Below, piece by piece: positions 22,493-64,000 of a stretch of DNA of 64,000 nt. A program made the translations under genes and the position numbers. The notes beneath the pieces are model-generated. The model searched no databases. It saw nothing but the letters and a program-made list of their open reading frames with translations, and was not told the DNA's origin. This stretch comes from Trichoplax sp. H2 (Eukaryota): positions 186,001 to 250,000 of the forward strand of contig NOWV01000100.1 in the NCBI GenBank assembly GCA_003344405.1, in the 5' to 3' direction. The first letter of the stretch is position 1; each line of letters opens with the position of its first letter.

Positions 22493-22674
22493 CATTTTGT
22501 TCCATCTATGGACGGTAACAAAGTCGCCTACAAACAGACTTGAGTCGTCAAATAGACCACTTTTCCTCAACTAGATCATCAATACATTTTGTTCCATCTA
22601 TGGACGGTAAAAGTCGCCTACAAACAGACTTGAGCCGTCGAATAGACCACTTTTCCTCAACTACATTATCAATA
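22493..22674. repeat. Tandem duplication, period ~92 bp
   Basis: CATTTTGTTCCATCTATGGACGGTAA...CCACTTTTCCTCAACTA at 22493 and 22585. Confidence 0.92.
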
Positions 22675-23235
22675 TGTTTTGCACTACGAATTAATCTATT
22701 TAAAGTTTCATTACTCTAACATGAATGTCTAACACTATAAGTTATTGGCCATCATCACCATGATAGCCCATCAAGTTACATAAATCTTGCACCATAGTTT
22801 ACAAACTGGCTAATACCGTGAGATTGGAAGATAGAGTTTCAAGATCGATTGCAATTGGCAAGAGAGAAAGAAACAGTCCTTGATAGAAGAACTGATCTAC
22901 CAAACAGCGTGCAATTTAGCTAGAGATCAGAGTCTCCATTTTACTTTCAAGGCAAATGTAAATTACCACTGCATACAGAAATATACGTACAGAGTCCTTG
23001 GTAGAAGAATTAATTTATATCAATAACATAAAGTTAATAAGAAGCCGAAGTTTTGTTACATTATTTTGGAGACACTGCATCATAACTCATCTCCCTGTTG
23101 CAGTGTTATGGCTCTGTAGAGTAGAGATTCGAGTAGAAATATTGATATTAGGACAATTTTATTAGCTTGCCCATATTTAATCAGCTTCTAATTTAGACAT
23201 ATTGCATTTTAATATAGTAGTGACTTTTTTGTGAG

Positions 23236-24153
23236 ACTGTGATATATCTATGACAGATATCTATTCTGAAACTGTTAGCTACCTGTTAGATCGGGTAAAT
23301 CGGTCAATTTTTAAAACATAAACGATATTTTTTTCATTGTCGTTCACATCTCATCAACGCGAGGGCCAATGCTTGAAAATTGTTTTTAATTTTATTTACT
23401 TTAATAGGGAGTTAACTGTGATATATCTATGACAGATATCTATTCTGAAACTGCTAGCTACCCACTAGATCGGGTAAATCGGTCAATTTTTGGAAAACAT
23501 AAACGATATTTTTTTCCCGTTGTCGTTCACATCTCATCAACACGAGGGCCAATGCTTGGAAATTGTTTTTAATTTTATTTACTTTAATAGGGAGTTAACT
23601 GTGATATATCTTTGACAGATATCTATTCTGAAACTGTTAGCTACCTGTTAGATCGGGTAAATCGGTCAATTTTTAAAACATAAACGATATTTTTTTCATT
23701 GTCGTTCACATCTCATCAACGCGAGGGCCAATGCTTGAAAATTATTCTTAATTTTATTTACTTTAATAGGGAGTTAACTGTGATATATCTTTGACAGATA
23801 TCTATTCTGAAATTGCTAGCTACCTAGCTACCTACTAGATCGGGTAAATCGGTCAATTTTTGGAAAACATAAACGATATTTTTTCCCCGTTGTCGTTCAC
23901 ATCTCATCAACACGGGGGCCAATGCTAGGAAATTGTTTTTTTAATTTTATTTACTTTAATAGGGAGTTAACTGCGATATACCTTTGACAGATATCTATTC
24001 TGAAATTGCTAGCTACCCACTAGATCGGGTAAATCGGTCAATTTTTTGTAAACATAAACGATATTTTTTTCCCGTTGTCGTTCACATCTCATCAACACGA
24101 GGGCCAATGCTTGGAAATTGCTCTTAATTTTATTTACTTTAATGGGGAGTTAA
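23236..24153. repeat. Satellite-like tandem array, 5 units of 179-193 bp
   Basis: Units start ACTG(T/C)GATATA at 23236, 23415, 23598, 23777 and 23970. Confidence 0.95.
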
Positions 24154-27106: not shown

Positions 27107-28204
27107 TTAAACTGAATAACTATTATGGCGTGAATAATGGTCGTTATAGCAAAAATCGCGAAATAGTTTAACTTGGTGAACAGCTAATTTATTATTTGTA
27201 TAATTAGATTGACTTAGTTCCATAGAAGAATTTCGTTCACGTCTTGAAAGAAAATTCCTTGCGAAAGAGTCACGAAATGACTGATGAGATCGAGCATAAA
27301 TAATAGGATTAATAGCACCATTAACGTAACTTACAACGTGAGCAAAGGAATAAACAATTCGAAATGTATTAATATTTTGTGAAATTATCCTTGGCGCAAA
27401 GGTAATTAACAAGAAACATGTATAAAGAGGAATCCAACAGATGAACATCAAACCGACAATAATAACTAACATTTTAAATACTTTCTTATTAATTCGATTG
27501 AATGTTTGACGATTTTGACTTGCTTGGCGGCCCTGGCGATCTTTTAAGAAGACACCAACACGCCAATATAATATACTGGTAGTACATAGCGGTAGAATAA
27601 AAATCAGCACAGTTAACGAAATGATGTAGACTTGATCCAATATAGCCCGTAAGGATCGATTCGCATGGAAGACATGCACACATACTTGGACACCATTTAA
27701 TACGTAGTAGTTCACGCTGGCAATAATTGGTAATGCAGTTAATATAGCTGCAATCCATATTACACCGATAATCCAAAAAGTGGTACGGGCAGTAATCTTG
27801 CGTTTATGTGGATGACAAATATAACGATAGCGTTCAATGGCGATAATCATAGCTGTAAAGCCCGATGCAGCTACAAAAGCATTTGGTAAGCCATGAAAGA
27901 TGTGGCATGCTATACGTCCAAAAACCCAATTTCTCTTGGTTATATTACGACTAAAATTAACTGGCATGGTAATTAGTGTAACACATAAATCACAAATTGC
28001 CAAGTTTACAATTAGGATATTCATCGGGATTCTCATACGTCGCCTTTTATCCAATATATAGCAAACTACAACTAAAGAATTGCCAACGGCAGACATTATA
28101 AATATTATGCTGTAAAGTGTACTTAAAATGATAGTATAAGCTAGTGGTTGCTGGAACGTTACTTTCGTTGTTGGATAGATGGTCGTGTAATTGCTAACAG
28201 CCAT
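27107..28204 (-). CDS. Intronless rhodopsin-like (class A) GPCR, peptide-receptor-like, 365 aa
   Basis: Seven hydrophobic segments with GN (TM1), NLAICD (TM2), WVFGRIAC (ECL1/TM3), IERY, TM4 W, FILP (TM5), CWIP (TM6), NPIIY (TM7) and helix-8 FR; N-terminal NYT sequon. Confidence 0.96.
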   Translation of the reverse strand: MAVSNYTTIYPTTKVTFQQPLAYTIILSTLYSIIFIMSAVGNSLVVVCYILDKRRRMRIPMNILIVNLAICDLCVTLITMPVNFSRNITKRNWVFGRIACHIFHGLPNAFVAASGFTAMIIAIERYRYICHPHKRKITARTTFWIIGVIWIAAILTALPIIASVNYYVLNGVQVCVHVFHANRSLRAILDQVYIISLTVLIFILPLCTTSILYWRVGVFLKDRQGRQASQNRQTFNRINKKVFKMLVIIVGLMFICWIPLYTCFLLITFAPRIISQNINTFRIVYSFAHVVSYVNGAINPIIYARSHQSFRDSFARNFLSRRERNSSMELSQSNYTNNKLAVHQVKLFRDFCYNDHYSRHNSYSV

Positions 28205-29632
28205 ATTTTTACCATTGATCTTAATCTGAGCAAATCGGTATCACGGAGAAGAATTTTTTTAATAGGCAGATGAATCAGCAGTTTTGAAGGACCAATTAAT
28301 AATGTATCTGGTCTTGAATCACTTCGTAAAATGAAGAAATCATTGGATCATCATTGCCAAGAGGAATACACACCGCTAGCTAAATTTCTAATCATTTAAT
28401 AGTATATCCCATCAGCAGTATAATCCAATCAAAATCTAGACTAAACCTGGTGTTGTACCCTCGTCGTAAAGAAGGTAAGCTAGTCCGTCAAAATTTCACG
28501 GAATAGCTAAATAGTTTATGCATACGAAAGTAGCAATCTGTTAAGTCAAAATCGATATTTACCTGAGATGGAGATGATATTTAATTGGTTGTGCATTTAT
28601 ATGTCAATATTGCAATACTGTATCCGACCTTCAACTTATTGCTATCATCAATAAGGTCATCAGGATAATCTAGATCATTATCAAAGCGTAGTATTTAGTC
28701 GTAATGGTATCGATGCAGAAAACAAAAGAGGATAGTCTGATTAATTAAAATACGATCATGGAACAAATCAAGCCTAGTATAGAAATAAAGATAGAATGAA
28801 TCCAATGAGGTATTGAAAAGTAGATCTGGGGTTCATATATTATCTAGAAATTTCTCTATTAAATATGATCTGTAGCGATAGGATAATCGTAATCTACTTT
28901 AGCATTAGCTTAACTTGAGTCTTAGCAATGTTGAAGGCGCCAAATTTTAGCATTAATGCAAAATTAACACAATCATATCAAACAAAGTTACACTTATAAA
29001 TGCCCATTTATAAGGTATTCAATAAAATATGAAATCGGAAAATTATCCATCCTTATAGATCATAGCGAATTGATGTATTGATATAGCAAAAAGTCCTTTT
29101 TGCTATGGAACAGACCTAATAAACAATTGACTACAAATAAAAATATTGGCGTAACATAAGACTAGCATATGCCTTTCCTTGTTTTATCAATGTTGTATTT
29201 ACTTAACCGAATTGATACTAAAAATATAAGATTCAAGGCGCAATTAGAATAACAAGAGTTCATTCAAATTGTCCCATTTATTCATCATGATTTATGACGT
29301 TATAAAACGTGGTATACAAGTAGTAATTCAATTTGGTAATGAATAAGCCCACTGCTAAAAACTATGTTATTATACATCCATCAAGCAAATATATTACAAT
29401 TTAATGCTATATCGATTGGCTTAACGTTCCATTTCGCTGTGTTCGAAATTATCTACACATGTGCATGCACAATCCTTGGCCATCTTTCAATCTAATGAAT
29501 ATAATGTTTACAACGTAACAGATGATCCATTATTATTTACTAATATAATCCTATTACTAATGTAGCATCCTAGAATACTAATTCAATCTCGACGTTTTGG
29601 GCTGTACAGCCTTAATAACTATATTGTCATTC

Positions 29633-45622: not shown

Positions 45623-46818
45623 TTACACTCTGGAAGGATAGAGCATCTAGCAAAAATAGAAGAAAGGATGATCGATTAATACAGTTATTTACAACAACTT
45701 TCCATCTAAAAGATGTCATAATAGCACAACAAGACTTATAACAAGATTGAATCAAGTTAAGTGATAATTAAAAGTTTGTAAGCACCGGATGAGGGTAATC
45801 ACTATATGTTGATTGTGAATGTAAAGTAATGTACATTGCGAAATTGTAGCAACAGTGTCAATTGTAAGTACGTCAAGCATATTTATTCGTACAGTACTAT
45901 AATTCTGGATCTTTATGCTGTAAAATAAATACAGAAGATTAAAGATTTACAGTAAAACTAATGATAACCTAGCGGGATCATCAAAGATACATTGTATTAT
46001 ACTGTAGGAAATAACTAATGGCAAGAATGGTGTCATAGTAAAGGGCACTACATTATCCAGATACTGTAGCGTATGACTAAAATTTTTTGTCAGAATCTGG
46101 TAATACCTTCACACCAGCATGCTAGCAACTGCAGTACTTCAACAACCATAACATAGAGTATCTACAGTAGCGTATAGCACCCAATCTTTCTAATCTTTAC
46201 CTATTGGCAGATGAAATATTTCTGCGACGGAATATCTTTTTTATTACTTGGCAGATTTATATTATAGTACTGTGCTATCAATCAGTGTTTGATTTGCTTT
46301 CAGACTATTATGACAATAATCATTGCTAGGAAAGTACGATCGTTATTTAATTCTAACTGTCAATAACATACCACATGAACAGTTGCACCCATTGATTTAG
46401 GAGGAAGATTGTGTCTAAACTTTGCACGGACTACTCCACTATTACCGTGTGATCTTGTAACCTTGCCCCACATCACTCTAAATTTGGAAGCATTACGCGT
46501 TTTTCGTAAAGTGGCTTTCGTCTTCTTTTGAGCACGGTAAATATATGCGACTCTCTTGCCCAAGTAAAATTCAGTTTCGTTCTTATTATTTACACCTTCG
46601 ATACGAATGAGAGATGTATTCGTATGTTGATTGCGTAAGCCTCGCTTATAGCCAAGTATTAAGCCTTTCGTGTATAGTCTAACGACCAATAATGAAGTGA
46701 AATATTTCATTACATTGGACTATACAAAGACAAGGAGTTTCCTACGTATTGCAATCAACTATGTATATTCTACTAGCATATCGACAAGGTATGGCGCTAA
46801 CCTGGTTGAGTTGGACAT
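45623..46818 (-). CDS. RPL35A: 60S ribosomal protein L35a (eL33), 115 aa. Coding exons 46818-46802, 46678-46372, 45646-45623
   Basis: [24 protein letters not shown]...[10 protein letters not shown]...[40 protein letters not shown]; splice phases consistent. Confidence 0.98.
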
Positions 46819-47142
46819 TGTGATAATATTACGACTCCAAAGCCTATTAATACATCCAAGAAATACTACATTATACATTGCCAATGCAAAAGTTAAACAA
46901 CATTGAGCCTATCCAGTAGAACAAGTAAGGGATATCAAGTCATCAACATGGCGTCTATCCACGCCAACTAGTGACAGTAATAAAATACTGCTACAGCATC
47001 ACTAAACATCCATCGGGTAAAAATCAGTCAATATCCGTTCATAATGGATGATAATACAATTATTTAAGCTTAAAGAATTATCATCAAGATATTTTCTAGG
47101 TAGAAAAAATGAAAAATTTTACGGCACATCTAAAATGCTCAC

Positions 47143-47178
47143 CCAGTCCGACAGCAACAATTCGAGAAGAAGGAAGAG
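47143..47178 (-). promoter_or_regulatory. Non-coding first exon of RPL35A starting at a TCT/5'TOP pyrimidine tract
   Basis: Minus strand CTCTTCCTTCTTCTC (47178-47164), then donor GG|GTGAG at 47142; matching acceptor TTAATAG| at 46844, 25 nt before the ATG. Confidence 0.75.
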
Positions 47179-47909
47179 ATTGTGGCAGCGAGGTAATTTT
47201 GCGACTGCGCAATTTAAATACCATCATGACGCATGCTTCCTTTTTCAAGGTACTTCGGACGTTCGGACGATCGGCCTCAATAACGCCTTAAAAGGTGCGT
47301 TCACACGATGAACTTTTTCCAGGGTAAGGGTACTAGCCGCAAGTTTCAGACGGGCGGACTTTCAGACCACGTAAGGCCGAAAATATCGAGACTATTTCAA
47401 TAGTACCAAACTTCTGTGTCTGTTTTCTTATGCACTATTTTAATTTTAATTTAGAAATGATTGATGAAGTTATATAACTGCTTTCAAGCAAAAACTTAGT
47501 CCAATAGAATAGAGCTCAATGAAATATTACTTATTCAATTAGAAAAAATAAGTCAAACATGGAATCGAGCATCACCATACTGCCGACTAGAAAACGAATA
47601 CAAGTGTTTGGAACAGACAGACAGGCAATACTGTTCAGTCAGTGTTCACTCACTGTTGTGTTTTTTAAGTGGTTGAAGTCTCTCATAGGCAGAAAGAGAC
47701 GGGACAGACAGCAAACGGTTGTTCACAATAGTCATCATGTGGAGGCTGGCTCTTTTGTTGGTCATTTCAAGTGTATCGCATGTCTGTAACGATACACTAT
47801 ACTGTCAGCGATTGACATCCAAATTAGCCTGCTAAGTTGATTTTGTGCAGTATGTTATACTGTATACTTTGATTGGTCCAGCTTGTATTTCCCACGGATG
47901 TAAGCAATG

Positions 47910-48485
47910 TTCTATACAGTACAGTACTGTACCATAGCAATCAAGATGCCGACCGCCTGTACTCCACTACAGTACTGTGCATTAGCCCTGTCAAGAACAT
48001 GTCTCTTCATTCTTCAATTCTTTGCTGGAATTCTTCAACTTTCATGTCAGCAAAAGAATTTAAGGAGTGGAGACGTAATGTGCCGTGTACAGTGTACAGT
48101 GTACAAAAGTCTACAGTTTACAGTACTTTACATTGTACTGTCTTAGCAAGTACAGTACAGTACAGTACTACACCACTGAGAGTGTACTGAATACAGTAGG
48201 ACGTCAATGGTACAATGTACAGTACTGTACGTACTTACTTGTGACTGAAGTTGTGAGTTCAAGTACAGTGTACAGTGTACAGTACTGTACCGCATTCTTG
48301 ATGTACTGTACAGGACAGTACAGTACTGTACTGTACAGGACATTGTACAATAGTCTACAGTTTACAGTACTTTACACTGTATTGTATTAACAAGTACAGT
48401 ACGGCACCACTGAGTGTGTACTGAATAGGACGTCAATGGTACGATGGACGTACAGTACTTACTTGCGACTGAAGTGGTGAGTTGT
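47910..48485. repeat. TACAGTA/TACTGTA-rich low-complexity tract with an internal ~140-bp direct duplication
   Basis: Dense ACAGTACTGT-type palindromes; AGTCTACAGTTTACAGTACTTTACA...GACTGAAGT.GTGAGTT at ~48108 and ~48352. Confidence 0.85.
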
Positions 48486-48607
48486 GATTCCAATTTTGCT
48501 TTTTCTTTGTTCTGTTTCGTTGGTCACATGACATCTGCTCAACCAACCCGTAGCCAGGCTTGAACTAGTGCCTGGGGTAGATTTAAATCGCATCTTCATG
48601 ATCGCTG

Positions 48608-48640
48608 ATTGGCCAACTTAGCCTAAGCGTCAACTTTGAA
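48608..48640 (+). promoter_or_regulatory. Putative G2/M promoter of cyclin B3: inverted CCAAT box plus CHR
   Basis: ATTGG at 48608-48612 and TTTGAA at 48635-48640 in a CpG-richer patch upstream of the cyclin B3 CDS; TGACGTCA at 48695-48702. Confidence 0.55.
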
Positions 48641-49390
48641 AATAACCGCATCCTTCTACAACATCGACATCATCGCGACGCTTGACACACTGACTGACGT
48701 CAGGCTGATTTACCAAACAAGCGTTTCGACTGGAGGACGTGAAGTAGGTTGAAGCTTGATCGTGTCACCCCACTCGGTTGACCACGTCTGTGTACATCAG
48801 TCTCGGCAACTGCTTGACGTTGCCATTGTTATTCTTGACCTGCCAAGTCAATTTCAGCTTATCCCATACAAATTGCTACAAGCAAGACAGAAACTTCACC
48901 AGCGTTGATTTTCTTCATTTTCAGCCTTCACTGAGGGTAAAATTCATTGAAAAATGGCTCAACTGATTGATAAATTGAATTTAATGGTCAATAGTAAAGG
49001 CCTTCAGGTAAATCGATCGATCCTAGATTGAAATTTTATGTCGTGGAGTAGCCGGTAGATGTCAACTCGCTCTTTGTCAGTTTTGCCATTTTTGTGTACA
49101 CAGTATCAAACCTTCAATGAACAACATGACTGTCATTCTATCCTATCCCTAAATATCATTTCAGCCTTGAATTTTCAATAGATTCATTCTGTCTAGTCCA
49201 TTGAAATCATGACTAATCTTGTTATGACAGTTTATAAAAGATAATTATATCAAGAGGATTCAAATCTTGCATGACATTGAATCATTTTGCTCTTTCTCTC
49301 TCTGACTCTCTCTTTCTCTTGCTGCACTTTTCAAACGTTTTTTTCTCCTTGTATTTTTTCCTCTTTTCAACCGTACACGCCCCCCTCTCT

Positions 49391-52300
49391 ATGGTCAAGC
49401 ATCCCAAAGCCAATTTAGTAACGGCTGCCAAGAAAAGAACGATCGAAGAATCATCCGATGATTATCCATTAACCAGTAAGAAAAGAGCTGTACTAGAAGA
49501 TTTAACGAATGTAAGTACATCAAGAATTGAATCCTTTAATCGTCATGTTTGCAATTTTTATCTCTCTCTTTCTCTTCCATGCATATTGCTAATCAGATCA
49601 TAGTGTATGGGTAATAACGACAAATGGATAAGAATGGAAAACAAACTTGAAATTTTCCATCTTACTTTACAGTCGACAACTTGATTCTACATTTCATTCT
49701 ATTAATTACTCGTGGATTACGTAATGTATCCAGATATCCTCTAGACCGTAGACGTTTCATGATGTAACATTTTAAGCATTATGTATTGTAACACGATACC
49801 ATGGCAAAGGAAAGAATCGTAAATTATGTGTACTGTACTTTAAATGATGGTACCTCCTCCATCAATCTCAACTTTCTTACATGATCAAAATCGAAAAAGG
49901 ACCAATTTTTGACACGTTTCATGACAGGATCTTTCCCGTAAGATGTTTACAATATGTATAACCAACCATATCCAGACACGTAGACTTTGATTTAGGTTCA
50001 ATTGAACCAAAAAAATGACAAGTTTATTCACAACGAGAATATATAATCATTATACTGCGTATAAAATGTTGTTAGTGGATAAATTCATTTAGCAAGAACG
50101 ATATCGTCAATAGGAACTGGTTTTTCAATTGGTCATAATTTGTAGTAGATACTACATGGAATAGATAGAATTAAAGATAGAAATACATTTTTCGTCAAAT
50201 ATAAATTATAAATCAAAAGCTACTTTCAATCCCGAAACAGTTGTATTTTCAGAATAGAACGTAATATTCAAGAGAACAGTGTCAATGGATATTACAATTA
50301 TCAGAGTGGTATCGAAATGGTAAACTATGCTCAATAAGGAGAGAAGTAGTATAATAAATAGAGGATAATAGGTCGATTAAAAATACGTGACGAGTTGATA
50401 TACTATCGTAATCCTGTCCATGTATACCAACAAGAACTATACTAATTACAATCCACTGATGTAAACCGTCACTTGAGTACAGTGTATAATGTGCTACTTT
50501 ACCTCACCATATTGCAACAATTTATGAAGGCGTTCCGATTGTAAAGTTATACTGTGTATGACTAATTTTATCGACTGTATAATCCGTGTCAAACACGAAT
50601 TCTCCGCAATAATTACTATTGTTGAAGAAATCAGCTTTGTTGACTCTACATAACAAATATTTTTCCTGACATGGTGTCATTACTGTAGAGAGTGTAAGTT
50701 TAGCAGTGAGTTACCTAAGAAATAATGGATCAATTTACTTACATGTTAATTAAAATAATGGCTCAGTAACATGATTTAAATTGACAACGGGTCATACATG
50801 CATAGAATGAAATGCTAGTGCTAGCAATACAACAGATGTTTATTATCTACCAAAGAATAATGAAAAGACAACATTTTTGACAGCTTGTGATCGAGGAGTG
50901 GGAAAATCCGTATTCGCTTCTTTGCTATTGGCTAATCAAGTATCTCAAAGTATACATATACCATGAATATTATTGTGAAACTACAGTCCAAACAATAGCT
51001 GCTGATGATTCATTACAAACAAAGTTATCATAACTTCAGCCCATTCAAACGATTTATGCTTTAAAGTCGTATTCTAATTAATAAATGCCATGTTGAAAAC
51101 GATATGAATTCAGTTAAAGAAAATTAAAAAGAATTTTCAGCAGACATAGGCTCTTAAAGTTTAATATCCGCAAAAAGTAATTCTAGATCTACTGGATTAC
51201 ATTGCGTGAAACTACAGTGTAAAAGAATTGACCTATTGAATAGTTGACTAAGCTACCGTAAATTATAGCTTCATAAATGCAAGTATTAAATTAATGTATT
51301 GATTTTCTAGGCTAGCCAAGACACCTTATTAAAATGGCATAATCTAAAGAAGCAACAAACGAATAAGAACAACGTCGAGCAAGTGCAACAACAAAATGAA
51401 GTTAAAGATCATGAGAGTGATTTAGGTCGAATTAAAACTAATATACATGAATTCCTCAAATGCGATGAAGATGATGTCGTCAATGGTAAAAGGTATTACA
51501 AACTTGTATGATATGTGTGTTTTTGAACCTGAAAATTTCAAATTTGAAAGGATATAAATTTATTCTGAAAGCAGTATATTTACACGATAAATTACATTTG
51601 CCTAATATTGCATAAAAATTTTATAACTTATCAGAATACTTTATTTTTTTAGCAGCTGTAATGAAAATGAAGAATCTAAAATTTCAACAGCACACCTTTC
51701 AACGATACTCAGTGAGGTAAAATAACTAATATCTTTACTTACAATGTTACGACGCATTAGTTTGAACTACATTTAACTTACATTTCGATTACAGTGTAAA
51801 CCCTGATCTACTATTACTACATAATAATATGATATATAAGGGTTTCACTCGTTACCAACATCACTTTGCGAGTACTTTAATTTAATTTCTTAGAAACTAA
51901 TGTAGCAAGCGTAGTAATACCTGATAGTGAACTGAGCGAATAATTAATTATTGTACAATAGCAATGAAACTTATTTTTGTGCTTCCTGATAACATAAAAG
52001 ATCTACGTTATCTTCTTTTGGACTCGCATTTAAACATCTTCAAATATTATTTTGATCATTATGCCAAACTTTATCATTTTAACAGGAGGTGCAGCGCGTA
52101 CTGACATTACCCAACGATGTCGCGGACATTGACGAAGCTGATTTAACTGACCCTTTCCGTGTTGCTGATTACGCTCCAATAATATTTGAAAACATGAAAC
52201 AAAGAGAAGTAAATATACACGCTTACACTATCGATTATAAACTTTTAATTCGAATGATGTAGCTACATTAGCAATTAATCTACTATTATGACTAGCAAGA

Positions 52301-53649
52301 CTTTTTATTAGATCAGTTTCTATATTAAAACGCTTTAGTAATTATCTAATTAATAATTTGTAACAGTTGTTGTACAGAAATGTTTTAATCGATCTATGTA
52401 AATTTGTAGGCGCAACTAGTCGTCAATGATTATTTAGAACGTCAAAATGATATTACAGAGCAAATGAGAATGATACTTATTGACTGGCTTTGTGAAGTAC
52501 AACAAAATTTCGAGTTATTTCACGAAACATTATATCTAGCTGTTAAAATTGTCGACCGATTTCTATCAGCTCGTGTCGTCTCAAGAGACGCTCTACAGCT
52601 TATAGGAGCTACGGCTATGCTGATGTCATCTAAAATTGAAGTAAGCCTACTCTACCATATATTTGCTTGTCATTTTCAAATTGTATTACAGTATTATTTC
52701 TTCATTTTTTTTGCTGAAGATTGATTACTTATAAACTCTAAATAATTATAGGAAAGATATCCGCCATTAGTGGATGATTTTGTATATATTTGCGATGACG
52801 CCTATAGTCGACAGGCTGTTTTGGACATGGAAAGAGATATTTGCTACGCTTTAGATTTTGATTTAAATATTCCTATACCTTATAGATTTTTAAGAAGATA
52901 CGGAAAGGTTAGAAATTTCTATATAGTGAAAGCACTGTACTTTCTTGTGTCATTGTAATAGCGCTATTACTCATACATCATCCTCATCAGTATATCAAAG
53001 TTTGCACCAGATCTAAGAATTTGATCACCATCTGTCAATAGGTAGCATCCCTCAGCATGGAAAATTTAACGTTAGCTCGATATATATTAGAGCTAACTTT
53101 ACAAGAATATCAATTTGTAACTTTTAAACCATCTATGTTGGCAGCTGGATGCCTATGTCTCGCTTTGAAAATGAAAAATTGCGGTGAATGGGTATGTATT
53201 TGCCAACATGAACTAAAATACCTTTACAATACTTAATAATTCTGGAAGTGGAATATTATGTTTAGCGTCATATACAGCATATCTAGCATATGATAGAATG
53301 ATATCATGCAATTATGGAAGTAGTTGGAATATTTTGGTATAGTATTAATTTTTTATCTTATCAGACTCAAACTCTAGTTCATTATTCTGGATATGAAGAA
53401 TCTGAACTAAATGAATTAGTACAGAAATTAAACGCTATGATAGCTAAACCGGCACCAGAAAATTGCAAAGTTGTAAAGACAAAATATTCTCACACGTAAG
53501 GAAATAGATAGCGTTTAAATACATATTTCAAGTAGAAATAAATACTAAATATCATCAGTTGTAATTAATTTTTTCGTTTATTAATTGCTTTTAGGGTCTT
53601 TTATCAAGTTGCTAATATAGCACCCTTACAACTTGAAACGGATGTATGA
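49391..53649 (+). CDS. CCNB3: G2/mitotic-specific cyclin B3, about 9 exons; start codon uncertain
   Basis: D-box KKRAVLEDLTN; cyclin box MRMILIDWLCEVQQNFELFHETLYLAVKIVDRFL (B3-type HETLYLAVK); ERYPPLVDDFVYICDDAY; IPIPYRFLRRYGK; KTKYSH..FYQVA; stop TGA 53647-53649. Confidence 0.93.
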
Positions 53650-56451
53650 AAATATCGACAAATTATGTCTTCTATTCTTTGATTCTATCCTGATTATAGA
53701 ATAGACGTCATAAGTTCTTATAGTGTGTTTATCGTCTGACTGATATCAGCTCTTTTAATTTATGCCATTAAAGGGCGATGTCTTGATTGTCATATGCCCT
53801 AAATGATATTGATACTTTCTATCTGGTTCATTTGTTTTACACAATTGAGCCTACTCAACGCGTGGAGAAGTCTCCATGTTTCAAATTATACATTATGTTA
53901 TAGAAACACATCACTTTATTATTTTGCATCTATTACATATGATTCTCATATACTACTATCACAATTATATAAACAATTTTCTTTACGCACCAACGTTCTA
54001 CTACCTTTCACCATAAGAAGATAATGTACAATTTATTGACACGTTCACCAAATAATTTTGCAATCTATATATTTCTTTCCATTGATTGAGCTACTGAAAT
54101 ACTACAGCTTTGCTTTTCTGAAGTACATATATATTAGCAAATACCTACTGCTATGTTTTGATTGGTTTTATAGATCATTTTCTGAATATTTTATTCGATT
54201 GTAAAGCATATTATTCTTTCTAAATAGCATTAATGCAAATCTATGCCAGGGAATAGATATAGTAAATCTTTTAGATATCCCTATACTTAGAATACGCATT
54301 TAAATATTTAAACAGTGTTAAGGTCACGTTATGTTATGACTTTTTCAATAATATCATGGCCTAATACTAGAACAGCTCTTTGCCCTAGCTCTGTGTATAC
54401 AACCATCGTACATGTACATAGCGATACGTTAGCGCAAATTCCTAGTACCGCTCTAATCTGAAATGTTATCTTCACTATATAATACACATTTTCTACAGTC
54501 CTCAAGTTGCAGCTCAATTTTGGATGTGCTGTGAAATGCATCATCAATTTTTTTGGAGCACTTAATAAAATGATTGATGGTAAAATAAAATTTAGTGTAT
54601 AAATCGTGTAAAAGTAATGCATAATGATTTATATGTGAATGAAATGAAGCTTAATTAATGAGATTAACGTTACTTGAGTTAACAATCCTATTTAATTACG
54701 CTGTTATTTTATTAATGTCATTTGAGCATAATAATTATTGATGCAGCAATATTAAAATGCTGCTAACCGAGGAATAATCGCAGCTCTACACGAATTGATT
54801 CTAAACGTTGAAATTCTGTATTCACGTAACGAGGCGTAGAACATCACCTTATTATCATGATTAGAGGAATGTACCTTTCAATGTAAATATCAGGTGAAGA
54901 TTAACTCTCTCAATGACAACCCATCAATAAATATGATAAAAGACCAGTTGATTATTATTTTGTTAAACATAGTTTACTACTACAGGGCGAATTGAAGATC
55001 TCCACAGCCTATCATTGTTAAAGTTGAATTAAATTTACTTCCTCTTGTTGCTATTAAAACTAGTGTACTGATTTCTAGCTTCTAAGTGTCCCAAATCAAC
55101 TAGACGTTTATGATACGGTGAATATTAATTAGAGTAATATTATCATGCTAGAGCATTTATTAGATATGTTTTTGCGCATCGAATAGATTGATACGTGGAT
55201 ACATTTGAGCCTGTCAATTTTTTAGCAACTCGATTTCATATCATGTATCAGGTAATGCTTTAAATTAACTCTTCATCGAATAATCTCAACAGGAAGGAAC
55301 GAACACTCTCAATTTTCGAAGAGGCGTTGGCAGTTGTATACTCGACAATAAGTGCTAATAAATCTAATACACAACATGCATATGTAAGTTGAGACAACGT
55401 GCTAAGTTATAGCAACCTCTTGTCGTAATTTTCACAATTTTAAGCCTAACACGGAGTTTATGGCATAAAGATCCTTTCCTTCTAAATATATTCATACTCC
55501 ACGGTAACATTCTCCAGAAAACATTATTCGGTGTTATTATTTTCAGTTTCGTTCCACATCCAGCACAACTGTATGGACTTTATGATGAAGAAAACATTCG
55601 AATTATTGCTATGTCTATATTCCTTTATACCAAGAAAATAACTTTGACAATCCAGAGTCAACAATTTTCTTCGAAATCAATAGATTGTTATTTTAACTCA
55701 TGCTATTGATTGATAATATTTGTAGCTTGGATAATTTCAAATTTTCAATACTAATCTTGACATTTGAGTACTTGTAATTAATCGGCCGACGAATAACTAA
55801 TTCAACATGAAGTTATTATTGATCTAATCGATCAAGATAAGCAAACAACAACCAGAGAATAAACAAAACAATCCATCATCAACTAATGACGAACGGTAGT
55901 TAAAAATCCGCCATAGAATCCCACATTAATTTAGATTGCTCTATTATAACTCATCTTGAGAATAATAAAAAATTCTAAAGTTAAAAATGAATAATCTAAT
56001 TTACTTCCTTACTCGCTAATCGTGGTGATAAAAGTAGAAAGGGTCTTCATGTGGATACTGACTCTTTGAATATAAAAAATATCTGAAAATCCCTTCATTC
56101 CATTTGGGTTGTATTTATTCAGAGGTTAGAGCCATATCCTTACTGAAGGTTAATAACAATCATCAGTCGAAAATATTTACCCTATCAAAGCAACAATTTC
56201 AACGTAGTTTATAGAGATGGCAGGAAAACAAGTTGATTATTCTTATATTTGGCAGAAACAGTGATGACTATAATTAGAGCGTAACAAAACTGGATGACGA
56301 AAGTTTCTGTAATATGAGCACAGTCGGTAGTAAATCTATTCGATGAACGGCTAGAAATTGTCAACAGATAAGCTATCTTGCCCTATCTGGATACCAACTT
56401 TAGATACAATTCTACCATCAACTTACTCACAAACAATAACAGTTGCTACAC

Positions 56452-56654
56452 TATAAATTGGGTTCCTTTTCCATGAAAATTTATTCCATTGCTACGATTA
56501 CACGAAAACGTGAAGTTCCAAGCTATACTACGAAGGAAATTTAATTGCTTTACGACATATCTATTCTAGAAGGAAAGGTAACGGATAGAAGTCCTCTGAA
56601 TTTAAAGATTATGATAAAGACTCACTTTCTTATTTTATCCGTACGTTGATTTAG
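56452..56654 (+). promoter_or_regulatory. TATA box, non-coding first exon and 5'UTR intron (56578-56654) of the insulin-like gene
   Basis: TATAAA 56452-56457; donor AAG|GTAACG at 56578; acceptor GATTTAG| immediately before ATG 56655. Confidence 0.6.
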
Positions 56655-57531
56655 ATGAAAGCGTTTACTCTTTTTGCCGTATCTTTGACCGTATTTCTTC
56701 TGGTAAATATTACTACCACATCAGCATGCATTGGTGGAATTCCCAAGGAGCAATTATGTGTTCCAGCAGCTTTCGATTGGCTTATCGATAATTGTCCAAC
56801 TAGAAGTGTTCGATGTAAGTTTTTCATCCTACATCTTATCCTTTGAAAGATAGAAGTAATTTAAAAGCTTTAAATCGCTGACTACTGAAGACCGTTAGAC
56901 AATTAGATAAATCTTCAGGAAATAGCAATATGTGCACTGTAATGTAAACAGATCTTTTAAAGCTTCGTATTCATTATTACGAATCATAATTAAATCGAGC
57001 TATTTGAAGTATAAATACTTGTAATTTATAATTTTTCATCATATTATTAATTACTCTAAGTTTTAAATATCAGTTGTTTAGAAATAGACATGCATAAGAG
57101 TAAGGATTTGAAACCTAATACTACTAGCCGCAATATTTGTAAAGTAGTTTGCCAGAATAGGACTGTTTCATTTAATAAAATAACTTCAAATTCTCTTCTT
57201 GATTACTAAAATTATACAATTCTAACCCAAAACTTAGTCGTAAGTCGAAGTTGCAATATTTGTGAAGTAGTTAGATAGAATAGAAGTTTCTTTTCAAATT
57301 CTCCTTTTGACTACTGAAATGATACAATTCTTACTAAGCGCTAGTTGATAAAGTCGAAATGACGCCAAAGAATAATGATCAAACAATTCAAGAAGTTTTT
57401 CATCTTTTCAATTAGGGGATCGTTTCCATCATTATCATGCTGCTCGACATTCGGTATATCTGCGCAATTTGCATAATGAATGCTGCACTCCCGAAGGATG
57501 TTGTCCTGAATACGCAATGCAATATTGTTGA
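56655..57531 (+). CDS. Insulin-like peptide precursor, 91 aa. Exons 56655-56814 and 57416-57531
   Basis: Spliced product MKAFTLFAVSLTVFLLVNITTTSA CIGGIPKEQLCVPAAFDWLIDNC PTRSVRWDRFHHYHAARHSVYLR NLHNECCTPEGCCPEYAMQYC*: signal peptide, B-chain C-x11-C, A-chain CC-x4-C-x8-C-stop, phase-1 intron in the connecting peptide. Confidence 0.9.
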
Positions 57532-60129
57532 AGGATTTCTATAATCGCCATCGTATAGATTTAATAATTTAATAAGTAATTATGACAACAATTAAGATGA
57601 TTTAAATTAGATGCTAACCAACACCAATAGAAGAATGGTTTAGCAACTGGATCATTTTTGGTTTGCTTACAAAATGGATCGATCATAAATTAACTCTGTA
57701 GTACAGTAAATATAGACGAATTAGAATTGGCTATCTATCATATTTCAATTATTAGACATTTTGGTGAGGATAAATAAATGCAGTTTAACAGCTGACCTGA
57801 AATTATTATTGCTTTGATATTTGGTGCTTGTCTAACCGATGTGCAGCAGAAGAGTTTTAGATTGCCGTTCAATTTTTGTCATTAATATACAAAGTAACAG
57901 TATGTGAATTATAAGTGTACTCGTAGTATTATACTTACTGATCTGAATACGATTTTGTGGCGTAGTGCCTATACCGATCAATTTTTAGAGGTGATAGTTT
58001 TCAAAGCATGAAATGAAACACAGAACGCTAATATCGTCTTAGTAGAAAAGCAGTATTTAGTTTAAGCGCTATTTTATACTACCTATTCCATTTCCATTTC
58101 TGTTTCCACATTTGAGTATATCTAATAGGCTGATATTTATAACTTTTAATCAATGGAAATCAAACCCATGCATTGGCATTTCCATAATTAAAATAGTCTT
58201 ATTCAATGTGATTGATAGCTTACGCGGTAGAAAGGTACAATAGAAGTATTATCAGTTAAGTTAAAGAACGCATGGTGAAAAGTCCCCATTGAAGATATTA
58301 ACAGATTGAGTATCAAACAGTTTTAATCTAAAGGCGATTTCTTTTCATAATTCTTTCTGTCAACAGTCTCTGTAATGGTAATTCAGACATTTCCTATAAA
58401 AATTAATATCAAGAATTTCTCGTCGAGAAACGATAATATTAAAAATTGCACAAATGAAATGCTCTAAAAGCTAGTAAAAATTGCAGATTCAACACTCCAA
58501 AAGTATATGAACTATAATTATCTCATTGGTTAGATTATATTATATAAACATGTCAGCATTATGCAGTAATTGATTTAATATAATTAATTAATAATGATAT
58601 GGTATATGACTTTGAAGTCGCAATATCAACTAGCTTTTAGGGTATTTTAGATGTACAAGTACTAACACTGTATTTCTTCGATTAGAAATGGTTAATGTCC
58701 ATTTCTTGGATAATACTGTACTAAAGTACTATTCTTCTAGCTGAATGCAAAGTTCTAGATCTGACAATGCTATCAGATACAGTCCTTTCGCCTTTATCTG
58801 AAGTGCGATTTATGTTTTTATTGTTCGATAGATTGGATTACGTATAAAATCGATTATATCAAAGATAATATATTACATGATTGCCAAGAGCTCAAATTAC
58901 AATGCCGATGAACGTAAGAGTATTTTATTGGCAGAACTGTTAGTATTGCAGCTTGTCGATTGCAAATTATTACATCTCAACTTATTAGAAAGCCTTGAGG
59001 TTGCATCTTGCAAGCTCGATGCAGATTCTGTACCATTATAGAGTTAAACTAGAGTAACAACATTGACTATTTTAGAATACTTTGTCAGCAGAATCGCTAT
59101 TACTCGCATTGCCATTTCTCTACTAGAAAAGGCTGATGCCAATTTATTCGAAAAAAATGAGTAGATCTACAAGCCAAAAGTAGGCTCCATATCAAGCACT
59201 GCTAGCTGATACCATACTTTAGCCTTATCTAATGCTTGATTCTTACTATTGTTCAATATGTTAGATTACATTATAAGCTCATTAGCATGATCATGTGGTC
59301 ATCGATTGTACTGCTATTAACAGTCTAGTAGAGGACTGTATAAGCTTCGAATCATAATACTATATAGTGCTGCAGTACTATGACCTTGCTCATAGCATTC
59401 TTATGATAATGATCTGCATACTCCGATCATCTTGAATTAATATAGGTGGATAGTTGGAATTCTCGACATCCATGCTCGTCTTTTAACACCTCAATTAAGA
59501 GCTATCCGCCCTGCTGGTTAGTGTAATCATCACACTAATTTAATGTGACCAACCTCCAACAGAACTCAAGGCCAATGCTATCGTAGTTTACTATCATTCT
59601 TAACGGCTTAATTGACTATTTCGTATGATCAAAGAGCAAAGAAATAGGTGCCATTTTTATTGCAACCCAATTCTTAATTAGACAAGGATTGGTTAAAACT
59701 CTCTATTAGATTGGCGATTCCATAGCATTTAAGCCTTTCCTGATTCTTAAACAGAGTCATCTCGATAATTTGACCTAGTTCTATATTATTCACGAATTAT
59801 TCATTCTCCATTATAATATGATGGCCACTTTTTCATCCAGTCAATCACATAAAGATGATGAGGTAAGTGAATAAAGAATAAGATATTCTATTCTCGAATT
59901 AGTGATCAAGTCCTTTGAACTCATTCCATTAATAAGTAGCTAAGATGCTATGTATACCTTTACACTAAATAGCAAAACAGTTTATGTGGTGCCTATCTTA
60001 AACCGTACGTGATCGTATCTAAATGTCGTCCAACCAAACACCGGTACAGCTAACTTCTTGGCCAAAATGTAGCCAGACCATTAGAGATTGTGACTGTTGC
60101 AAATTATCTACCTTTTTCTATTAAAATGT

Positions 60130-60952
60130 AGTACGGCCAGTATATCATAATAAAGTGAATTTTTAGCTTACCACATATAATATAGTACCGGTTAGCCATA
60201 AAATCGTTAGGTTTGCAAGTATGACTATCGGAAGTACGGCCATTACATCATAATAAACTGAATGTTTAACGTACTACGCATAATATGATACCGCTTCGCC
60301 TTAAAATAACCAAATTTACAAGCATTACTATTTAAAGTACGGCCATTACATCAAGGTAAAATGAATTTTTAACTTATCCTGCATACAGTAGTATGGTGTC
60401 GCTTTGCCTATAAAATCACCAACTTTGCAATTATTATTATTTAAAGAGCGGCCATGACATCATAATAAAAGTGAATTTTTACCTTATTTCGTATAGTATG
60501 GCGTCTCTTAAATCATAAAATCGCCAGGTTTACAAGTACTATTATCGGAAGTAAGGCTATTACATCATAATAAAGTGAATTTTTAACGTGCCACTCATAA
60601 TATGGTGCCGCGTAGCCATAAAATCATCAAGTTTGCAAGTATTATTGAAAGTGCGGCCATTACATCATAATAAAGTGAATTTTTAACTTATTTCGTATAG
60701 TATGGGTCTCTTAAGCCATAAAATCGCCAGGTTTACAAGTACTATTATCGAAAGTAAGGCTACTACATCATAATAAAGTGAATTTTTAACGTACCACGCA
60801 TAATATGGTGCCGCTTAGCCATAAAATCATCAAGTTTGCAAGCATCATTATTGAAAGTGTGGCCGGCCATTACATCATAGTAAAGTGAATTTTAACTTAT
60901 AACGTATAATTTGGTACCGTTTAGCCATGAAATCACTAAATTCATGAGTATT
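60130..60952. repeat. Tandem array of 8 units of 100-109 bp
   Basis: Core TACATCATAATAAAGTGAATTTTTA (or close variant) at 60141, 60244, 60347, 60456, 60561, 60661, 60764 and 60871. Confidence 0.93.
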
Positions 60953-61338: not shown

Positions 61339-63731
61339 ATGAGTAAACCAATTCAGAAAGAACTTAAAATTCATATCCATGACAGTAACAATAGAGCAAG
61401 GAATTGACTAGCAAACTCTTGTAATTACAACTATAATTATTTATATTTGTTATAGGAACACGAAGATCAAATTCAAATAACAAGTCGTCAATCATCGAGT
61501 ACTTCTCGAAATGCTTTTATTACTAATGAATATGACGACATTATGAATGGAAATAGCCTCGATAACGATGAGACGGTTAGCAATAGATGGTGTCTCCATT
61601 TACCTTGTTATGATTTTAATATATAAAATTTAAAATCGAAACACTTTATTGATTGCAATAGCTTACTCTTGTCCGGTAGTAATTAATGTTGTGCAGTGTA
61701 TATTAGTAATAATTCTACAAGATAATCATTATGCTCATATTTAACCCCACCTATACGGTACTAAGACTTTATTGATTATTAGGTAATAGTCTCGCATAAT
61801 AGTGCATCAGGATATATTGGTGGATATCCTACATCCATTGCTTTAGATCGTTGCAAGCGGCATGTACTAGCGCCTTATCTGAGGTTTATTTCTTTTGTAA
61901 GTTAGACACTATTTTAAACAATAATAATCCAACCTCAGCCAAAAAGAAGAAATATCGCAGCATGACTGAAACTGCATTCTTCAATATTGTACTCAATAAC
62001 CAGTTTAATTTGGGAGACTGTTAACTTTCTCAATCATTATTGAAATGTACTTTATTGCAGTTGGGCTGGTTGCCAATATTTCGAGTTGGCCCATCTAATC
62101 AATCTTTTTGCGAAAGCGCCATCAATTTCGTCTATCCTGTGCTGGTCATCTGTTTTATATTTGGGGCTTACACGATTCAGTGTTTTACCTGCTTTCGCCG
62201 AGACACGGTATATCCAAATTACAAGCTGCTGCCACAATAAAATGTCCTAGTTACAGCTATAAAAGCAACTTTAGTACTCATTCCTAAAATAATCGATACA
62301 GTGAGGTTCTATCTGCTATAAAATTATGCAACCAGTAATCATTATAAATCCTAGACAGTAACATCTAATTCAGTTTTATTGGTGATGATCAATCATTTAG
62401 TTCTAGCAAAATAGTCTGATCATCGTTGTAAATAGAGTAATTTCTTCTATTACTTGAACACGTCTTCTAGGATTAATTTAATAGTGTTAGTAATTCCCTT
62501 TTTAGTTTATTCAATTTAACATATTCTATCTCCTCCTTTATTGCAGCCCTTCATTAAAACTATCAATGGAAGCGTCCACTGTTCTGATAGTATCATTTCG
62601 CAATATATTATCCCAGATATATTGCATTCTGTTGCCTACTTTTATTGCTTTTACTTATATCGATTTGCTGGATCTGAACATTTACAGACAAATATGCAAA
62701 GGGTAAGCCATTTTACAATGAAATAAGGTGTAACTGCTACAGCATCATGCATGTCTAATATCGCCATAGTAGAAATGATTAAAGCGTGAAATATTACTTA
62801 CCTGTAGACGTTCCTGCAAGCAAGGCCCACGGATTTCGGAGAAAATTCGCAAAAAAAATTAATCAGAATATTAAGGTTTAATATACATATTGCTCCAAGT
62901 TTCGTATAGCTTCTTTCATCTTAATTTTGTGTATTGTTATATCTAAAAAAGTAATTCTTTTGGAGCTAATATATTGACTACTACTATACGATAGTATGTA
63001 TTAGGATTCGTAAAACGAAGAGGAGAAATAATTTTTTATAAATTTAGGACCATCTTTTCCTGTGAAATTACTATTTGTAGCCGCATCCTTCTTATACGAT
63101 TTCATTGCTTATTTTTGGCATAAATTTAGAGTTTTCCTTTACTCCGGAATTGCCATCGTAGGTGCATCTTTCTTAATCCAACTTTTCCACTTAATTATCA
63201 GAATTAATCGTGATCAAGGATTAGCTCTGTTATGGCATCCAATGATCAAGTAAGCTTTAACTGTGTTATACTAGAATAGTTAACTTTTAAACTAAAATTT
63301 CGTTAACTTTAGTTTGAAGAATCTTGATTCTATATCTCGTATGCGGTATGGATATTCATAGTTTTCAAGATCTATTGTAAATTTGAAATCATAACTATTT
63401 ATGCTATTTTTAATAATTTAAATTTTTTGTAAGTACGAGAAAATTAAATGAATTTTACACTGTAATAAACAAGTACTCCTTTCTCCCCTTCTATGCGAAT
63501 CCTTGCCTTTTTCTCCAAATTAAACTTTGTGCGAAAATTCATTCAAGAATACACGATTCTCGACTTATTGTCTTGGGATTCTTTCTGTTAGCTGGTTTTA
63601 TAATGCTTGATAGCGTTTATATAGCGCTAGTTATTAATTATGCAAGCCATTGCCAACTCTTAATAGTTTATATAAGAGGATTAAAGCAAAAGATCATAGA
63701 ACGGACGTGTAATTTAGAAAACGCTATGAAG
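61339..63731 (+). CDS. 5' portion of a multi-pass membrane protein, probably gustatory receptor-like (GrlHz / 7TM ion channel superfamily); continues beyond the window
   Basis: In-phase GT-AG exons (61456-61575, 61783-61896, 62061-62207, 62547-62702, ~62808-62875, ~63130-63249, ~63548-63731) give LDRCKRHVLAPYLRFISF|LGWLP..NFVYPVLV..TCFRRD|..C..IISQYIIPDILHSVAY..EHLQTNMQR|TFLQ..SQKKLIRILR|..DSVYIALVINYASHCQLLIVYIRGL..LENAMK. About 4 TM helices are visible, with no signal peptide. The first exon and start are uncertain, and the family call is from motif recall. Confidence 0.7.
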
Positions 63732-64000
63732 GTTAGTCATTACTGTATGGTATTACCATATTATTCCCTTTCGCTCTTTGATGATCGTAAATCATACGTA
63801 GATATAAAATTTAGAATTTCAATTAAACACGTATCAGAATAATTCTTTCCATACCTTTTTTACTAAAGTAAAAGAAATTGATCCCGGTCAAGCTAATTTA
63901 GAAATTACAGTAGCACACGAATATACAGTATATGCTGTTGTAAATAATAGTAAAAATTATTTTTTAATTATAATTACTTACTAGTAGATAGTGTTGCTTA

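What the first reader, a model, noticed from the sequence alone, without database searches (positions are those of the whole stretch)
56452..57531. Four-disulfide insulin-like peptide with a short His-rich connecting peptide and vertebrate-type gene structure
Seen: only after splicing does the 63-aa ORF become a 91-aa prepropeptide with the six canonical insulin cysteines plus one extra Cys at the B-chain start and one in the A chain (CCTPEGCC). The B chain lacks the usual Cys-Gly. The ~23-aa linker has no KR/RR pair but has RSVR and RWDR (R-x-x-R) and HHYH..H. Layout is TATA, non-coding exon, intron just before the ATG, then a phase-1 intron in the C region. Established: that intron layout is the insulin-family pattern, and extra A-B disulfides occur in molluscan and nematode beta-type ILPs. 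Inference: a fourth disulfide, possible single-chain or furin-only processing, and possible metal binding by the His cluster.
Basis: partly seen in the sequence, partly recalled or inferred. Interest (0 to 1): 0.75.

Follow-up and report, generated by a model that had tools for sequence, protein, structure and literature searches.

The report
Overlooked eight-cysteine insulin-like hormone gene
A nerveless marine animal (a placozoan) carries a real, spliced gene for a small insulin-like hormone that probably has one extra disulfide bond in an unusual place; it is a member of a well-known hormone family and may already have been predicted once.

Summary
The gene is real. Both introns (56578-56654, 56815-57415) are spliced in RNA contigs of 3 of 4 runs laid, from two studies. 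The spliced frame gives a 91-aa secreted precursor with 8 Cys: B-type C-x11-C, A-type CC-x4-C-x8-C, plus C25 and C83. Each exon alone retrieves insulin-family clusters in the ESM Atlas (scores 0.86, 0.82; leads only); Pfam hits neither exon. Neighbours RPL35A and cyclin B3 point to a placozoan locus apart from the published insulin-labelled cluster, and the protein is missing from the protein collections searched. Corrections: the phase-1 C-region intron is family-wide, not vertebrate-type; both R-x-x-R motifs lie on the B side; a lone Arg70 sits at the usual C/A cut register, so two-chain processing is at least as likely as single-chain. The fourth disulfide is inferred and needs signal cleavage before C25; metal binding has no support. 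It may be one of four Trichoplax insulins predicted in 2015 (paper not held).

The parts
56452..56457 (+). TATAAA box
   Evidence: Sequence; the X19 RNA contig begins 30 nt downstream at 56482, but contigs cannot prove a start and the X18 contig runs further upstream
56482..56577 (+). Non-coding exon 1 (5' end approximate; no ATG inside)
   Evidence: RNA contigs X18, X19, X20; no ATG
56578..56654 (+). Intron 1, 77 nt, GT..AG, ending directly before the ATG
   Evidence: Joint in 3 of 4 runs laid; ends checked
56655..56726 (+). Signal peptide, residues 1-24 (cut after Ala24 inferred; cuts after 21-23, 25, 27, 28 also pass the -3/-1 rule)
   Evidence: Hydropathy peak 2.7 at residues 7-17; rule listing; no SignalP available
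56727..56813 (+). B domain, residues 25-53: extra Cys25, CysB7 (C35), CysB19 (C47), R-x-x-R at 50-53
   Evidence: Translation and register; Atlas lead to insulin clusters for exon 2; helix at residues 38-45 in a low-confidence model
56815..57415 (+). Intron 2, 601 nt, phase 1, GT..AG, splits codon 54
   Evidence: Joint 56814/57416 in X18, X19, X20
57416..57465 (+). Rest of the connecting region, residues 54-70: Arg56, His58/59/61/65, Arg64, Arg70 (putative monobasic C/A cut)
   Evidence: Translation; register; cleavage inferred
57466..57531 (+). A domain, residues 71-91 (21 aa): CC-x4-C-C-x7-C, i.e. CC-x4-C-x8-C plus extra Cys83; stop codon
   Evidence: Translation; Atlas lead, 10 of 10 best family-bearing hits in the insulin clan; helix 85-90 in a low-confidence model
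57532..57791 (+). 3' UTR with AATAAA at 57773-57778
   Evidence: Hexamer; RNA contigs of X18 and X19 stop at 57789 and 57791 (weak hint)

Best explanation
A three-exon placozoan gene for a secreted insulin-like peptide. SHOWN: transcription and both splices; reading frame; cysteine pattern. INFERRED from family knowledge: the signal peptide is cut after Ala24; the propeptide folds with the three canonical bonds (C76-C82, C35-C77, C47-C91); the N-terminal arm of the B chain loops back along the A10-A12 segment so that C25 bonds to C83 as a fourth, A-B bridge (about 65%). The basic (+4) connecting region is then most likely cut at the R-x-x-R site(s) on the B side and at the lone Arg70 on the A side, giving a 21-residue A chain, a roughly 28-residue B chain and a 13-16-residue His-rich C-peptide (about 50%; B-side cut only about 25%; uncut about 25%). 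The peptide would be released from a peptidergic cell type and act as a paracrine growth or feeding signal, more likely on the placozoan insulin receptor tyrosine kinase (about 55%) than on a relaxin-type LGR (about 35%). The His cluster is probably not part of the mature hormone. The confidence given is for the core claim: a secreted insulin-family peptide with a C25-C83 fourth disulfide.
For: Splicing in 3 of 4 runs, two studies. Eight Cys with C-x11-C and CC-x4-C-x8-C spacing; CC-4X-C-8X-C is the signature reported for placozoan insulins (PMC12702675, passage). Phase-1 C-domain intron is the family mark (PMC8286064, passage). Both exons separately retrieve insulin-clan clusters. In register, Leu at B6 and B15, Arg at B22, Glu at A5 and Tyr at A19 match human insulin (human residues recalled). 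The A-chain start matches starfish multinsulin-1 at 9 of 12 aligned columns by eye (best of 20 rows shown). B2-B4 pair with A10-A12 in a four-disulfide insulin analogue, so the B arm passes the position of C83 (PMC7012051, passage). Placozoans have an insulin-receptor orthogroup in four species, IRS, and PCSK5/6- and PCSK7-labelled genes (PMC10580291 supplement rows); peptidergic cells express a prohormone convertase and carboxypeptidases.
Against: Pfam Insulin is not hit by either exon at E<=10; PDB sequence searches give only chance hits; Atlas scores are under 0.9 and so leads only. No homologue was found, so conservation of C25, C83, Arg70 and the His cluster is unknown. Six of seven candidate signal cuts are not the one assumed, and three of the seven (after 25, 27, 28) remove C25. 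Receptor-contact residues of vertebrate insulin are replaced (Asn A1, His A3, Val B8, Ala A16, no aromatic B24-B25 pair, canonical residues recalled). No peptide from this precursor among six motifs searched in the published placozoan peptidomics table, which used annotated proteomes for most searches.
Confidence: 0.6

Rival explanations
1. Single-chain or singly clipped IGF-like ligand: the 23-residue linker stays attached (wholly, or as an N-terminal extension of the A chain after a furin-type cut at R-x-x-R), so the His cluster stays in the hormone and could bind Zn/Cu or act as a pH switch.
For: No dibasic pair anywhere; no R-x-x-R or even-spaced basic pair ending at Arg64 or Arg70. Short-linker ILPs such as DILP6 and several nematode INS are considered single-chain (PMC12702675, passages). 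Four His in 21 residues has binomial p about 0.001 at an assumed 2.3% background, chosen after the fact.
Against: Arg70 lies in the usual C/A cut register; no D or E domain follows the last Cys; metal binding rests on composition only.
Confidence: 0.4
2. Three-disulfide ILP with a spare thiol: signal peptidase removes C25 (cut after 25, 27 or 28), leaving seven Cys; C83 is free or joins two molecules into a covalent dimer, or C82-C83 form a vicinal bond.
For: Three of seven rule-compliant signal cuts remove C25; insulin-like precursors with odd Cys counts are reported in cone snails (PMC12343078, passage).
Against: Ala at -1 and Thr at -3 make the cut after residue 24 the textbook choice (recalled rule); an even count of eight Cys suits pairing.
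Confidence: 0.25
3. Relaxin/dilp7-type ligand of an LGR G-protein-coupled receptor instead of the receptor tyrosine kinase.
For: A-chain start resembles dilp7-related multinsulins; second Atlas hit for exon 3 is a 'Relaxin' cluster (0.83); 46 LGRs are reported in T. adhaerens (PMC9545775, abstract passage); insulin-receptor contact residues are divergent.
Against: [quoted passage not shown]
Confidence: 0.35
4. Not an insulin-family member: an unrelated secreted Cys-rich peptide (defensive or metal-binding) whose spacing resembles insulin by chance.
For: No Pfam, PDB or homologue hit; fragment fold searches return no insulin.
Against: Signal peptide, both Cys spacings, intron phase and position, A-chain register and two separate Atlas leads all agree.
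Confidence: 0.07

Closest known systems
Trichoplax adhaerens insulins 1-4 (Nikitin 2015, as cited in PMC12702675) and the insulin-labelled H2 genes TrispH2_004495-004497 (PMC10580291 Table S5)
   Same: Placozoan locus by synteny; A-chain signature CC-4X-C-8X-C; signal peptide
   Different: Lies after cyclin B3 (TrispH2_008519), far in numbering from 004495-004497 and from the relaxin-labelled 008345, 010965/6, 011168; not in the protein collection; does not end in the CPIH-amide of TrIns3. Identity with Nikitin's Ins1 or Ins4 could not be checked (paper not held).
Molluscan insulin-related peptides and MIP-like conoinsulins
   Same: Eight Cys, three A-B bridges, extra Cys on an N-terminally extended B chain (PMC12343078, PMC7012051 passages)
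   Different: Their extra A-chain Cys is at A4, before the CC; here it follows CysA11 (A12). No dibasic sites here.
Ambulacrarian octinsulin and four-disulfide multinsulins (PMC8286064)
   Same: Eight Cys; single phase-1 coding intron (octinsulin); similar A-chain start and cut register (multinsulins)
   Different: Octinsulin's extra Cys are after CysB19 and after CysA20 (2 of 30 rows seen); the three eight-Cys multinsulins among 20 rows seen carry both extra Cys on the B side; most have KR sites and CC-x3-C.
Caenorhabditis elegans beta-type INS peptides (Pfam Ins_beta)
   Same: Four disulfides, short or absent C-peptide; Ins_beta clusters appear among Atlas hits
   Different: Extra bond joins the C-terminal ends of B and A (recalled, not checked here); here it would join the B N-terminus to mid A chain.
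Engineered A10-B4 four-disulfide human insulin (described in PMC7012051)
   Same: Extra bridge between the B N-terminal arm and the A10-A12 strand
   Different: Artificial; A10 rather than A12; B4 rather than ten residues before CysB7.

Membership tests
Insulin/IGF/relaxin superfamily | N-terminal signal peptide followed by B, C, A domains in that order | tested here: met
   Hydrophobic residues 4-17, then C-x11-C, basic linker, CC-containing domain; SignalP not available
Insulin/IGF/relaxin superfamily | B-chain C-x11-C | tested here: met
   C35 and C47; spacing of the family recalled and seen in most rows
Insulin/IGF/relaxin superfamily | A-chain signature CC-3X-C-8X-C (CC-4X-C-8X-C in placozoans) | tested here: met
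   C76, C77, C82, C91 give the 4X form reported for placozoan insulins
Insulin/IGF/relaxin superfamily | Phase-1 intron in the C domain | tested here: met
   Intron 56815-57415 spliced in RNA contigs; family mark per PMC8286064
Insulin/IGF/relaxin superfamily | Match to Pfam PF00049 profile | tested here: inconclusive
   No hit for either exon alone at E<=10; the spliced precursor could not be scanned; Atlas feature search leads to PF00049 clusters for both exons
Insulin/IGF/relaxin superfamily | Three-helix fold with three canonical disulfides | tested here: inconclusive
   Single-sequence models of each exon piece (pLDDT 61) place helices at 38-45, 66-75 and 85-90, near the expected positions; fold searches with the exon-3 piece list no insulin; no model of both chains together
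Vertebrate-type two-chain insulins | Dibasic convertase sites on both sides of the C-peptide | tested here: not met
   No KR/RR/KK/RK pair
Vertebrate-type two-chain insulins | Gly A1, Val A3, Gly B8, Gly B20, His B10, aromatic B24-B26 (recalled list) | tested here: not met
   Asn, His, Val, Pro, Ala, Val-Arg-Trp at these positions
IGFs | D and E domains after the last A-chain Cys | tested here: not met
   Stop codon directly after C91
Molluscan-type four-disulfide insulins | Extra A-chain Cys at A4 paired with extended B N-terminus | tested here: not met
   A4 is Asn; extra Cys is at A12
Octinsulin | Extra Cys after CysB19 and after CysA20 | tested here: not met
   Compared with 2 of 30 octinsulin rows
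Vertebrate relaxins | [quoted passage not shown] | tested here: not met
   No Arg in B1-B21
Published Trichoplax insulins 1-4 | Sequence identity with one of the four precursors | not testable with these tools
   Paper not held; TrIns3 excluded by its C-terminus; 'Insulin2' is mapped to TrispH2_004497
Insulin-receptor ligands | Binds and activates the receptor tyrosine kinase | not testable with these tools
   Receptor gene present in placozoans; no assay

The most novel reading that the evidence does not exclude
An uncatalogued placozoan insulin that carries a fourth, natural B-arm-to-A12 disulfide in a position not seen in the molluscan, octinsulin or multinsulin patterns compared here, and that is matured without any dibasic site (R-x-x-R plus a lone Arg), releasing a His-rich C-peptide that may itself bind metal or signal. 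It would show that insulin ligand diversification, the C-domain intron and C-peptide excision were in place in a neuron-less lineage, and give a natural template for an extra stabilising bridge next to the engineered A10-B4 site.
Probability: 0.25. Interest if true: 0.62.

Novelty: new member of a known kind. Interest (0 to 1): 0.42.

Why it matters
Placozoan insulins are the deepest well-supported members of the family and none has been characterised biochemically in the papers seen. A gene that is absent from the deposited protein sets is invisible to gene-model-based single-cell counts and database peptide searches, so adding it makes cell-type expression and processing directly testable on existing data. 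If C25-C83 is a real bond, it adds another independent position for a fourth insulin disulfide. It does not change how the pathway is thought to work.

Tried and rejected
Pfam on each exon: only weak unrelated hits. Word-indexed protein search: exon-2 ORF against 34-111 aa (no candidate) and 112-2000 aa (24 candidates, none E<=10); exon 3 against 73-2000 aa (no candidate); phmmer of exon 3 over 1.84 billion representatives: 0 at E<=0.001. Positive control: the window's intronless GPCR is in that collection. PDB sequence searches: chance hits only, one to a His-tag. Metagenome scan: 1 of 416 pattern matches passed (L001) and was rejected as a chance match in a frame opposite a prokaryote-like gene. 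Fold searches with the 37-residue exon-3 model: Foldseek none, VIA-align best Z 2.9 to bHLH proteins; uninformative for so small a piece. The two-chain complex predictor was not available, so no model of B with A exists. No whole genome was held, so paralogues elsewhere were not searched; none in the window. Alternative splice pairs: 7 GT-AG pairs keep the frame; RNA supports only 56814/57416. Bacterial promoter scan is not applicable. Motif searches in print: 0 papers for three motifs in main texts; 0 in 5 supplement files of PMC10580291 (one cut), in 12 of 31 files of PMC11087051 and in 6 files of PMC6425005 (two cut). bioRxiv supplements (Varoqueaux 2018, Tables S1-S2) and Nikitin 2015 could not be seen and may hold this sequence. 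The idea that this gene is TrispH2_008520/OG_1150 (next number after cyclin B3) was judged unlikely because the protein is not in a collection that holds a neighbouring gene's product, and another multi-exon coding region lies at 61.4-64 kb; not proven.

Full report
Observation. An AG precedes the ATG at 56655, a GT donor lies at 56815 and an AG acceptor ends at 57415; the joined frame is 276 nt, 91 residues and a stop, with Cys at 25, 35, 47, 76, 77, 82, 83 and 91. The unspliced ORF is 63 residues. The A-chain pattern followed by a stop occurs once in the window, against 0.035 per window in 200 simulated windows; this ignores the signal peptide and B-chain pattern, which make chance less likely still.

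Expression. Twenty-four runs were listed for the locus, 20 holding part of it; four were laid. Contigs of X19 and X20 (on record as RNA, study P2) and X18 (RNA by guess, study P7) skip both 56578-56654 and 56815-57415 with GT..AG ends. X17 gave six unspliced pieces, including intron sequence, and looks like DNA or pre-mRNA. The X19 contig begins 30 nt after the TATAAA box, but the X18 contig reaches at least 301 nt upstream of 56300, so a longer leader or read-through also exists, and contigs cannot fix a start. X18 and X19 contigs stop 11-13 nt after an AATAAA. Two allelic differences were seen: 57467 changes residue 71 from Asn to Ser (X18, X20) and 57501 is silent in the C82 codon (X20, depth under 5).

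Where it comes from. The window holds an RPL35A gene on the minus strand at 46.4 kb and a cyclin gene on the plus strand at 49-53.5 kb. In the orthology table of PMC10580291 (supplement rows) RPL35A and cyclin B3 carry consecutive numbers in three of four placozoan species listed (the T. adhaerens identifiers are not comparable in this way). An earlier scan note also calls this genome Trichoplax. I take the locus as placozoan, probably Trichoplax; the cyclin's B3 identity is recalled from its motifs. The insulin-labelled H2 genes in that paper are TrispH2_004495-004497 and relaxin-labelled ones 008345, 010965/6 and 011168, whereas cyclin B3 is 008519. The next number, 008520, is an unnamed four-species orthogroup; it is more likely the coding region at 61.4-64 kb, because neither exon of the peptide is found in the protein collection while the window's GPCR is there from NCBI and EukProt. 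This is an inference, not a proof.

Family membership. Signal peptide, B-C-A order, C-x11-C, CC-x4-C-x8-C and a phase-1 C-domain intron are all present. The 4X form of the A signature is the one reported for placozoan insulins (PMC12702675, passage), and the intron is described as common to all insulin-family genes studied in ambulacrarians (PMC8286064, passage), so 'vertebrate-type' should read 'family-type'. The ESM Atlas, queried with each exon alone, returned insulin clusters first (exon 3: 0.86, 182 of 256 features, PF00049 on 41% of members; exon 2: 0.82, 168 features, PF00049 on 23%); in both, 10 of the 10 best family-bearing hits were in one clan. These scores are leads by the tool's own calibration. 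Against: Pfam hits neither exon, PDB sequence searches give nothing, and fragment models are low-confidence (pLDDT 61; helices at 38-45, 66-75, 85-90) with uninformative fold searches. The full precursor could not be scanned or folded. I put membership of the superfamily at about 0.93.

The extra cysteines. In register, C25 lies ten residues before CysB7 and C83 directly after CysA11. The molluscan-type extra bond uses A4 (PMC7012051, PMC12343078, passages); octinsulin's extra Cys follow CysB19 and CysA20 (2 of 30 rows seen); three of 20 multinsulin rows seen (of 55) have both extra Cys on the B side; the nematode beta-type bond is C-terminal (recalled). None of these matches. A bond from the B arm to A12 is geometrically plausible because B2-B4 pair with A10-A12 in the engineered A10-B4 analogue, and the arm here has two Gly and a Pro to turn back. 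But C25 is at the signal cut: seven positions pass a simple -3/-1 rule and three of them remove it. The fourth disulfide is about 65% likely.

Processing. There is no dibasic pair; both R-x-x-R motifs (50-53, 53-56) are on the B side. On the A side Arg70 is followed by exactly five residues and then CC, which gives a 21-residue A chain. The same register holds a KR in 9 of 20 and a lone Arg in 2 of 20 predicted echinoderm multinsulin precursors shown (counted by eye; none is shown to be cut), and the A-chain start matches starfish multinsulin-1 at 9 of 12 columns. His65 is at P6 of Arg70, which fits a recalled rule for monobasic cuts. Placozoan peptidergic cells express a prohormone convertase and carboxypeptidases, and fragments of another placozoan insulin-like precursor were detected by mass spectrometry, one ending before an Arg. 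Two-chain maturation is thus at least as likely as the single-chain reading. If so, four of five His leave with the C-peptide. B10 is Ala, so the vertebrate zinc-hexamer site (recalled) is absent. Nothing here supports or excludes metal binding.

Receptor. Placozoans have an insulin/IGF receptor orthogroup and IRS in four species, and many relaxin-receptor-labelled genes (46 LGRs in PMC9545775). The peptide lacks the vertebrate relaxin cassette and most vertebrate insulin contact residues, keeping Tyr A19, Leu B6, Leu B15 and Arg B22 (reference residues recalled). I favour the tyrosine kinase modestly.

Is it new? Four Trichoplax insulins were predicted in 2015 by genome and transcript mining; that paper is not held. 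TrIns3 ends in CPIH-amide (10.1101/360925, passages) and 'Insulin2' maps elsewhere, which leaves Ins1 and Ins4; the shared 4X signature makes identity plausible, about even odds. Motif searches found nothing in main texts or in the supplements reached. Papers seen: passages of PMC9545775, PMC12702675, 10.1101/360925, PMC6737977, PMC10580291, PMC12796670, PMC12343078, PMC8286064, PMC7012051, PMC6425005, PMC13174244, PMC11521371; a term search with no hit in PMC5612019; supplement rows of PMC10580291, PMC8286064, PMC11087051, PMC6425005; Nikitin 2015 not seen. The scan's own index held no note of this peptide.

Verdict. A real, expressed, divergent placozoan insulin-like gene missing from the protein sets searched. 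New member of a known kind, possibly already predicted; a new variant only if the C25-C83 bond is confirmed. Interest 0.42.

Noticed in passing
window 57129-57334: Intron 2 holds a degenerate tandem duplication of about 110-120 nt (copies start near 57129 and 57252; 81-87% identity in pieces).
   Followed up: partly
window 55999-56481: The X18 RNA contig extends at least 301 nt upstream of 56300 while being spliced at both introns: a longer leader, upstream start or read-through; if unspliced it would hold seven upstream ATGs.
   Followed up: partly
window 8809-10762 (+): Two long frames (325 and 199 aa) of a probably secreted orphan protein; by eye the second half recalls a legumain/caspase-like fold with the catalytic His and Cys positions replaced (recalled motif). 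Pfam and PDB sequence searches gave no support.
   Followed up: partly
window 27107-28240 (-): Intronless rhodopsin-family GPCR (7tm_1, E 3e-50), 365 aa from the first Met, present in the protein collection.
   Followed up: partly
window 46360-53500: RPL35A (-) and a multi-exon cyclin (+, with an N-terminal destruction-box-like motif) arranged head to head; consecutive gene numbers in published placozoan annotations.
   Followed up: yes
window 61400-64000 (+): Several hydrophobic exon-like frames of an unnamed multi-pass membrane protein running off the window; no Pfam hit below E 0.05; possibly the unnamed orthogroup OG_1150.
   Followed up: partly
window 18262-18886, 20614-20938, 22489-22681, 23236-24153, 60130-60936: Tandem arrays with periods 211, 162, 90, 179 and 103 nt; not examined further.
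   Followed up: no
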